This document shows positions 9,871 to 10,296 of a stretch of 64,000 bases of DNA, piece by piece (within the stretch, counting starts at the first letter, position 1; every line of letters begins with the position of its first letter). The stretch is from Eledone cirrhosa (lineage: Eukaryota). The notes beneath the pieces were generated by a model. It saw only the letters and a list, made by a program, of their open reading frames with translations, searched no databases and was not told the origin of the DNA. The stretch covers positions 29,512,001 to 29,576,000 of the forward strand of contig OZ024763.1 in assembly GCA_964016885.1 (NCBI GenBank), read 5' to 3'. Position numbers and translations under genes: made by a program.

Positions 9871-10296
9871 AGAAGTAGTTCCACAACAGTTAATTCACCA
9901 CTGTTGTGGAAGTATTTCCATCAAACTCATCCCATGGACTGAGTGCTTTACTACTACGGATATAGCCCAGCAATTTTCTCCCTCTTTCTTCTACTGGCAG
10001 GTTCAGCTACCCCTTCCCTCCACAAATTGCCATGATAGAATTATTATGTCTCAACAACAAACTTTTGACCAATCCTTGTGACAATCACTTTTACCATATA
10101 TGGAATTGCCCCCTGAGAAGCTCGGCTATTCATATACCAGGATAAAAATGTTCAATTAGTCCGGAATTAGCCGTCGAAACGGCTTGAGCTCAGCCGTCGG
10201 GGTCCTACTCGTTCCTATTACCCACTCTACTACCCTAAGTATTGAGTACTTTGGTGCGTTATCGTCCACCTGGTTCCTTACCACATTTCCTTCGTT
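9871..10296 (+). mobile_element. ~425-bp HHR-bearing non-autonomous element (Penelope pLTR or retrozyme-like), family H1, inside (TA)n
   Basis: Bounded by (TA)n on both sides; 5' end matches the reverse complement of 63257-63371; 3' half matches 24121-24260, 32610-32725, 45762-45900, 63431-63575; contains an HHR fold at 10102-10205. Confidence 0.7.
10102..10205 (+). ncRNA. Type I hammerhead ribozyme with degenerate core (G8 to A)
   Basis: Stem I CCCC(10109-12)/GGGG(10199-202) plus GGA/TCC; core CTGAGAA 10113-19; stem II CGGCTA/TAGCCG; GAAA 10176-79; stem III ACGGCT/AGCCGT; GTC site ending at 10198. Confidence 0.7.

What the first reader, a model, noticed from the sequence alone, without database searches (positions are those of the whole stretch)
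9871..10296. ~425-bp ribozyme-carrying element inserted in (TA)n: candidate cephalopod retrozyme or solo pseudo-LTR (family H1)
Seen: a discrete unit bounded by (TA)n on both sides, with no recognisable coding motif, carrying a type I HHR fold (10102-10205). It has a 6-bp stem III with a palindromic loop and a long stem II; this copy has G8 to A. Related pieces occur at four other loci in the window (24121, 32610, 45762, 63257-63575), each next to a TA tract. Established: metazoan non-LTR retrozymes are non-coding units of a few hundred bp with type I HHRs that yield circular RNAs. Inference: an abundant non-autonomous family mobilised by a Penelope-like partner.
Basis: partly seen in the sequence, partly recalled or inferred. 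Interest (0 to 1): 0.75.

Follow-up and report, generated by a model that had tools for sequence, protein, structure and literature searches.

The report
Penelope remnant with mismatched hammerhead core
This is the broken tail end of a known kind of protein-coding jumping gene, not a new ribozyme parasite; its lineage kept spreading while its self-cutting RNA motif carried a likely disabling mismatch and later appears to have repaired it, which offers a natural test of whether such ribozymes are needed.

Summary
The hammerhead motif is real, but 9871-10296 is not one element and not a retrozyme. 9977-10296 is the 5'-truncated 3' end of a Hydra-clade Penelope-like element (F1). All 39 other top genome hits share only this part, and longer copies run into an RT plus GIY-YIG ORF. 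9871-9979 is a remnant of a second Hydra family.

'G8 to A' is family-wide: G8 has 36 hits, U3-A8 about 2,000, and mismatched C3·A8 about 1,400. Trees place the C3·A8 copies as a grade between older and younger U3-A8 subfamilies (C3 clade rejected, AU p=3.6e-5). The source lineage therefore likely lost and then regained the core pair. The rest of the fold stayed conserved meanwhile, so residual function is not excluded. Cleavage is untested.

Most copies are tiny palindromes; 74 of 88 arms stop at 10152-10165.

The scan had already noted a Hydra U3-A8 hammerhead and two fixed start sites elsewhere in this genome (e1-9560118, e1-8804728). The C3·A8 interlude was not among the notes shown.

The parts
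9807..9871 (.). (TA)n target tract, left side
9871..9900 (-). Inverted arm of a short insertion of family F2, a second Hydra-clade PLE
9901..9979 (+). Direct arm (3' tip) of family F2, 77-91% identical to its listed relatives, last ~5 nt missing; lies 3' of F2's own hammerhead, which this copy lacks
9977..9979 (+). 3-nt overlap at the F2/F1 junction (microhomology)
9977..10296 (+). 5'-truncated 3' end (pseudo-LTR) of Hydra-clade PLE family F1, 97-99% identical to its best relatives; no inverted arm in this copy
10108..10203 (+). Type I hammerhead motif; predicted cleavage after C10198
10113..10119 (+). Core with mismatched C3 (10113) and A8 (10118), N7 = G; marks the C3·A8 phase of the lineage
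10152..10165 (+). Position at which most F1 arms in the genome are truncated; contains a conserved initiator-like TTAGTC (A at 10158)
10219..10296 (+). 78-bp 'tail' between the end of inverted arms (10218; 41 arms) and of direct arms (10296, ambiguous into TA; 47 arms)
10297..10313 (.). (TA)n target tract, right side
24121..24322 (-). Short two-armed F1-type insertion truncated in loop II, no 5' half of the core
32625..32718 (-). Remnant of sister family F3 (F3 copies with a full core mostly carry C3-G8)
45762..45957 (-). Short two-armed F3-like insertion (assigned by eye)
63257..63370 (+). F2 insertion with a canonical C3-G8 hammerhead starting at 63304
63429..63575 (+). Short two-armed F1 insertion

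Best explanation
The segment joins remnants of two Penelope-like retrotransposon families: 9977-10296 is the 5'-truncated 3' end of an RT and GIY-YIG encoding Hydra-clade element (F1), likely pasted by Penelope-type enzyme into the TA tract beside a likely older remnant of a second Hydra family (9871-9979). Shown: the unit is about 3.55 kb (pLTR, ORF of roughly 720 codons, 1.35-kb 3' region ending in the hammerhead); copies sit in (TA)n, usually as two opposed arms ending at two fixed sites 78 nt apart. Inferred, by analogy with the anole element: the protein nicks TA-rich DNA and starts reverse transcription at those two internal RNA sites, both 3' of the ribozyme cut site, so the template was uncut or rejoined there. 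Shown: this copy belongs to a phase of about 1,400 motif hits with C3·A8, placed by trees between older U3-A8 (N7 = A, C) and younger U3-A8 (N7 = G, U) subfamilies. Inferred (about 0.75): the source lineage lost the 3-8 pair, kept transposing through several successive source elements, and later regained it. Inferred (about 0.55): cleavage was much reduced in that phase and is not required for each transposition, while the fold stayed under constraint.
For: Boundaries and ORF linkage: (L045 shows inverted arm, direct pLTR, ATG, ORF, 3' pLTR, TA). Hydra motifs; 68 homologues of 653-810 aa, 36-48% identity. Arm ends. Core counts. Order: three separate regions give the same nesting; U3(G7/U7) nested at 98/95, C3 clade rejected p=3.6e-5 and p=0.008 on an independent alignment; outgroup shares the C3-group state at 25 of 29 diagnostic sites; added rungs fill the ladder. 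A prediction held: five C3-G8 hits implied a hidden older C3·A8 population, and 478 hits were found, 90 of the first 100 with C3. In vitro, single C3 or G8 mutants abolish cleavage of the anole PLE ribozyme yet do not affect insertion (PMC11167929).
Against: No cleavage or expression data. During the C3 phase 0 of 11 other core sites and 1 of 34 stem sites changed, against 16% of flanking sites (P = 0.004 for core plus stems, 0.15 for core alone), so the motif was not decaying freely. C3 and G7 arose on the same branch and C3 is nearly absent with other N7 (46 hits), which fits a coupled active variant. Ages separate the phases only weakly: arm divergence medians 3.2% (C3, 16 of 20 pairs), 2.9% (U3/G7, 18 of 20; p = 0.23), 1.7% (U3/U7, 10 pairs; p = 0.11 against C3); overall rho -0.35, p = 0.013. 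The deepest root rests on one distant row and on older arm ages. No intact ORF was seen among the 12 long loci, of whose ORF listing part was cut from view. The published mutants are C3G and G8C, not G8A.
Confidence: 0.8

Rival explanations
1. The C3/G7/A8 core is an active variant: the register would slip so that C3 pairs with G7, with no N7 spacer and a spare A before stem II. The ribozyme would then never have been off.
For: C3 appears together with G7 and almost never with other N7. Core and stems stayed conserved in that phase. An unpaired base between positions 9 and 10.1 is common in PLE hammerheads (PMC4209133).
Against: No paper on such a core in the one search made. From recall, N7 is a needed spacer. 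The lineage later returned to U3-A8 and then changed N7 again, which suggests the normal register is preferred.
Confidence: 0.25
2. [quoted passage not shown] A promoter in the upstream pLTR would start inside loop II, both reverse transcriptases would run off the RNA end after about 140 and 60 nt, and long copies would need a jump to the RNA's 3' repeat, as in retroviral strong-stop transfer. This adds to the best explanation and does not replace it.
For: Both arms stop at the same template position although they start 78 nt apart: 34 of 39 direct and 40 of 49 inverted arms at 10152-10165, 53 of 59 by a stricter measure. Medians of the short arms fall on the A of TTAGTC, 10158; AGT is invariant in 17 of 17 F1/F3 rows. 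D. virilis Penelope has an internal pLTR promoter with an initiator (PMC2377424, passages). 5' template truncation shortens products in vitro (PMC11167929).
Against: The stricter measure has its mode at 10162 and 16 of 59 arms between 10153 and 10157, upstream of the supposed start. F2 stops are spread over 5-59 nt with no sharp peak (18 of 25 arms). A structural block in the upper stem II would give a similar pattern. The initiator consensus is recalled, short and common. The sample is anchored on the stem III motif, so shorter arms are missed.
Confidence: 0.35
3. C3·A8 is the ancestral intermediate between a canonical C3-G8 ancestor and U3-A8, and was compensated twice independently.
For: Sister family F3 has C3 in 7 of 7 full cores found, 6 with G8. 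Two changes at position 3 would suffice.
Against: The N7 = A and C subfamilies look older (arm divergence 4.9-10.7% in 4 of 5 pairs, one at 0.75%) and form successive rungs below the C3 phase; no C3 population with other N7 exists above background.
Confidence: 0.15
4. The 425-bp segment is a non-autonomous retrozyme that spreads as its own unit through a small circular RNA.
For: About 22,000 short hammerhead-bearing pieces without coding sequence; retrozymes are related to pLTRs (10.64898/2026.07.22.740005).
Against: The unit does not recur; no tandem arrays; upstream ORF; most short copies lack half the core and have unique junctions.
Confidence: 0.03

Closest known systems
Hydra clade of C-terminal EN+ Penelope-like elements, e.g. 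Hydra-1_Obim (Craig et al. 2021, PMC8557442; passages, section 11, supplement passages and supplement part 2 seen)
   Same: Single ORF with RT then GIY-YIG; DKT, RW-basic, CxCX5C, CxxC and CxH motifs; (TA)n target; hammerhead near the 3' end; inverted truncated arm and tail.
   Different: Not Hydra-1_Obim: its protein is homologous but distinct by eye and its hammerhead differs. F1 is 3.55 kb (clade generally under 3 kb), has a 78-bp tail (30-40 bp described), a 6-bp stem III and long stem II, and A8; every Hydra core listed in File S2 has C3-G8.
U3-A8 hammerheads of Schistosoma Cercyon PLEs (Cervera and de la Pena 2014, PMC4209133; parts 1-2 of 4 read)
   Same: Same swapped core pair in a pLTR; dispersed single motifs from truncated copies; opposite-strand pairs.
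   Different: There a minimal stem III; no mismatched C3·A8 phase and no subfamily order reported in the parts read.
Poseidon element PAc of Anolis (Frangieh et al. 2024, PMC11167929; parts 1-2 of 4 read)
   Same: Two internal start sites that define the tail; AT-rich targets; template uncut at the ribozyme.
   Different: Different clade; start sites lie inside the ORF, here 88 and 166 nt before the ATG; their core mutants are engineered, here natural.
Metazoan non-LTR retrozymes (PMC7229834, passages; 10.64898/2026.07.22.740005, part 1 of 5)
   Same: Type I hammerhead, short non-coding dispersed copies, link to PLEs.
   Different: Retrozymes are tandem repeats of 150-450 bp with a full motif per unit and no ORF; F1 has neither property.

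Membership tests
EN+ Penelope-like element | ORF with RT and C-terminal GIY-YIG endonuclease linked to the segment | tested here: met
   RT motifs and YIG region upstream in L044, L045, L046, L050; Pfam gave only a weak RVT_1 hit, E = 0.058, in 1 of 3 pieces; 68 homologues
EN+ Penelope-like element | pLTR from partial tandem, inverted 5'-truncated arm, one-sided tail | tested here: met
   L045 layout; fixed arm ends 10218 and 10296
Hydra clade | DKT, RWK-type, CxCX5C linker, CxxC and CxH around conserved E and N, no CCHH | tested here: met
   DKT, RWR, C-N-C-X5-C (third Cys is Phe in several copies), CNLC, CKH seen against the definition
Hydra clade | (TA)n insertion preference | tested here: met
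   TA follows the 3' end in 30 of 30 loci
Hydra clade | Placement in an RT phylogeny with reference PLE clades | not tested
   Reference proteins were only read in a supplement and compared by eye
Hydra clade | Canonical C3-G8 hammerhead core (typical, not universal) | tested here: not met
   8 C3-G8 hits among about 3,500 core hits; met in sister families F2 and F3
Non-LTR retrozyme | Tandem repeats of a 150-450-bp unit, each with a full type I hammerhead | tested here: not met
   5 same-strand pairs within 1 kb in all loci fetched to that point, all split by TA tracts; unit not recurrent
Non-LTR retrozyme | Non-coding, non-autonomous | tested here: not met
   Linked ORF
Non-LTR retrozyme | Expressed as small circular RNA | not testable with these tools
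   Needs RNA reads or RNase R RT-PCR
Type I hammerhead ribozyme | Core boxes and three stems in type I order, conserved | tested here: met
   0 of 11 core, 1 of 34 stem, 12 of 39 loop II, 52 of 156 upstream sites vary among five subfamilies; 82% of cells paired, 4 pairs with changes on both sides, not beyond shuffles
Type I hammerhead ribozyme | Watson-Crick pair between positions 3 and 8 | tested here: not met
   C3·A8 in this copy and its subfamily; met as U3-A8 in the others
Type I hammerhead ribozyme | Self-cleavage | not testable with these tools
   Needs an assay

The most novel reading that the evidence does not exclude
A Penelope-like lineage in this genome records a natural ribozyme knock-out and rescue: it switched from a working U3-A8 core to a crippled C3·A8 core, still spawned over a thousand ribozyme copies through several generations of source elements, then restored U3-A8. 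This would be in-vivo evidence that hammerhead cleavage helps but is not required for PLE transposition. In the boldest form, most insertions are strong-stop products that end at a transcription start inside the ribozyme, and full copies arise by a template jump.
Probability: 0.4. Interest if true: 0.62.

Novelty: new member of a known kind. Interest (0 to 1): 0.4.

Why it matters
The role of hammerheads in Penelope-like elements is called unclear in PMC8557442, and one in-vitro study found cleavage dispensable for insertion (PMC11167929). This family supplies natural alleles of one ribozyme (U3-A8, C3·A8, U3·G8, and C3-G8 in a sister family) with an inferred order and copy numbers, so activity can be set against proliferation in four small assays. 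The sharp shared stop of both arms gives a second handle on how PLE cDNA is completed. The locus itself is ordinary transposon debris.

Tried and rejected
Rfam: the whole-window scan showed only repeat-driven miRNA hits among the 150 of 520 rows listed; focused scans of both hammerheads gave no hammerhead family. Folding z-scores were uninformative for all four sequences. Pair counting did not exceed shuffles. RNA: no RNA holder listed, so no reads were laid; this says nothing on expression. The first tree was spoiled by non-homologous flanks and was discarded. Unrooted trees first suggested C3·A8 as a derived terminal clade; outgroups reversed this. The idea that five C3-G8 copies mark a canonical rung was rejected: they are scattered over rungs and about 1% of the surrounding C3·A8 population. 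Identity with Hydra-1_Obim was rejected. Paper searches for G8A/C3U data, a core without N7, or compensatory subfamilies in PLEs found nothing further; these cover open-access text only. Repbase and Dfam could not be searched, so F1 may already be in a repeat library (PMC13282606, passages, lists 31 recently active Penelope-like families in one octopus). The preprint's supplements were not seen and may list related elements.

Full report
1. Observation. The segment lies between TA tracts and holds a type I hammerhead motif at 10108-10203 with C3 at 10113, A8 at 10118, a 6-bp stem III and predicted cleavage after 10198. The four related window loci exist. Folding energy does not support the fold on its own (z = -0.10; an alternative fold is 3.8 kcal/mol lower) and Rfam does not recognise it. 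Conservation does: across five subfamilies 0 of 11 other core sites and 1 of 34 stem sites vary, against 12 of 39 loop II and 52 of 156 upstream sites; the 92 sites downstream are also conserved, 7 of 92 varying. Pair counting on 17 rows gave 82% paired cells and 4 pairs changed on both sides, above all slid controls but not beyond shuffles.

2. Two elements, not one. All 39 other top-scoring genome hits start at window 9976-9979, and 29 of 29 fetched loci continue upstream in other sequence. That search favours long copies. The first 109 bp match a second family, F2, at 77-91% where aligned over 68 nt or more. F2 copies end a few bases beyond this point in TA, have their own canonical hammerhead (6,005 hits of a 24-mer) and a Hydra-type ORF. 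The two pieces overlap by 3 nt. F1 is 97-99% identical to its best relatives, so it likely arrived later (inference).

3. What F1 is. Upstream sequence runs through a 1.35-kb non-coding region into a GIY-YIG domain and an RT. L045 shows the full layout: TA, inverted truncated arm, direct truncated pLTR with the hammerhead, ATG 88 nt later, ORF broken by frameshifts, 3' pLTR, TA. The DKT, RWR, CxCX5C, CxxC and CxH motifs and the TA target match the Hydra clade definition (PMC8557442 section 11). It is not Hydra-1_Obim. A search with the RT piece found 68 proteins of 653-810 aa; Pfam gave one weak hit in three pieces. No intact ORF was seen in the long loci, and I did not search for one.

4. Not a retrozyme. 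Retrozymes are tandem non-coding units with a full motif each (PMC7229834; preprint). The 5 same-strand neighbours within 1 kb are all split by TA. The stem III 30-mer has 22,208 hits. In 40 loci chosen from its first 100 hits, leaving out the tight inverted pairs, most insertions are small head-to-head palindromes with different junctions and different subfamily letters.

5. The core. Counts are exact motif hits, not insertions; many insertions have two arms. U3-A8: 667 with G7 and 1,330 with A, C or U at N7. C3·A8: 974, about 90% of a further 478 (90 of the first 100 listed), and 46 with other N7. G8: 36, of which 8 C3-G8. U3-A8 is published for Schistosoma PLEs (PMC4209133). Sister family F3 has C3-G8 in 6 of 7 full cores.

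6. Order of states. Without an outgroup C3·A8 is one side of a branch (52 rows; 41 rows; shorter arms were dropped). With the A7/C7 subfamilies as outgroup, the RT, EN and 3' regions each place C3·A8 as a grade with U3/G7 and U3/U7 nested inside. On 33 rows a C3 clade is rejected (p = 3.6e-5) and the outgroup shares the C3-group state at 25 of 29 diagnostic sites; 11 of 13 in coding sequence alone, and p = 0.008 on an independent alignment, where the U3 group itself had only 75/44 support. Twenty more loci filled the rungs between (82 rows; alignment). The ladder reads U3/A7, U3/C7, C3/G7, U3/G7, U3/U7. Divergence between the two arms of one insertion agrees in trend but weakly: medians 7.7% (4 pairs), 4.85% (1), 3.2% (16 of 20), 2.9% (18 of 20), 1.7% (10); rho -0.35, p = 0.013; C3 against U3/G7 p = 0.23. 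Pairs under 200 sites were dropped. The deepest root is the least certain step.

7. Meaning. In the anole PLE, single C3G or G8C changes abolish cleavage and do not affect insertion in vitro (PMC11167929). F1 arms start 20 and 98 nt 3' of the cut site and read through it, so their template was uncut or rejoined. A crippled core could therefore propagate (inference). Against a dead motif, core and stems barely changed during the C3 phase (1 of 45 sites, flanks 16%; P = 0.004; core alone P = 0.15), and C3 arose with G7, which would allow a slipped pair. Only an assay separates these.

8. Truncation cliff. 34 of 39 direct and 40 of 49 inverted arms stop at 10152-10165 (53 of 59 at 10153-10164 by a stricter rule), about 40 nt 5' of the cut site. 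A shared template position points to an RNA end or a structural block, not to length-dependent fall-off. Medians fall on an initiator-like motif that is conserved in F1 and F3 (consensus recalled). The stricter mode is 10162, and F2 stops are diffuse. I give the transcription-start reading 0.35.

9. Earlier notes. The scan had noted a Hydra-clade U3-A8 hammerhead with long stem II and paired hairpins marking two start sites in this genome; a look-up by this sequence found nothing. The C3·A8 phase was not in the notes shown nor in the paper searches.

10. Verdict. Observation partly confirmed; retrozyme reading rejected; a new family of the known Hydra clade, with a testable natural series of ribozyme cores. 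Interest 0.4.

Noticed in passing
window 63257-63370; L229-L253: Family F2 is a second abundant Hydra-clade PLE with a canonical C3-G8 minimal hammerhead, palindromic AAUU loop and a tail of about 65 bp.
   Followed up: partly
L287-L294: A small side clade of F1 (7 rows, support 100/98) carries a U3·G8 wobble core, a second natural non-Watson-Crick variant.
   Followed up: partly
window 10168-10176 and 10192-10199: The 8-mer AGCCGUCG occurs twice in the ribozyme and CGGCU twice, so stems II and III can swap partners; the swapped fold is the predicted minimum in 4 of 4 copies folded, a possible off-switch.
   Followed up: partly
L141, L158, L166: Long T or A runs at the junction of the two arms next to the truncation cliff, possibly stuttering of the reverse transcriptase at a template end.
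   Followed up: no
L029; L310/L311: The two arms of one insertion differ at core position 3 (C in one, U in the other): later mutation or use of two templates.
   Followed up: no
window 47022-47145 and 62902-63017: Near-perfect inverted arms of 40-60 bp around a central TA run, apparently mirror duplications of flanking DNA.
   Followed up: no
window 32-232, 10773-10884, 14939-15937, 35514-35704, 37600-38121, 40923-41138, 48814-49558, 53407-53584: A roughly 190-bp SINE-like repeat with many copies, some in tandem.
   Followed up: no
window 21052-21634, 22794-23385, 29057-29757: Tandem arrays with periods of 260, 122 and 95 bp.
   Followed up: no
L048:96-3513: Helitron-like Rep and helicase reading frames beside an F1 copy (named from recall of the motifs).
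   Followed up: no
L052, L248, L240, L244: Other PLE families cluster in the same TA tracts as F1 and F2 copies.
   Followed up: no
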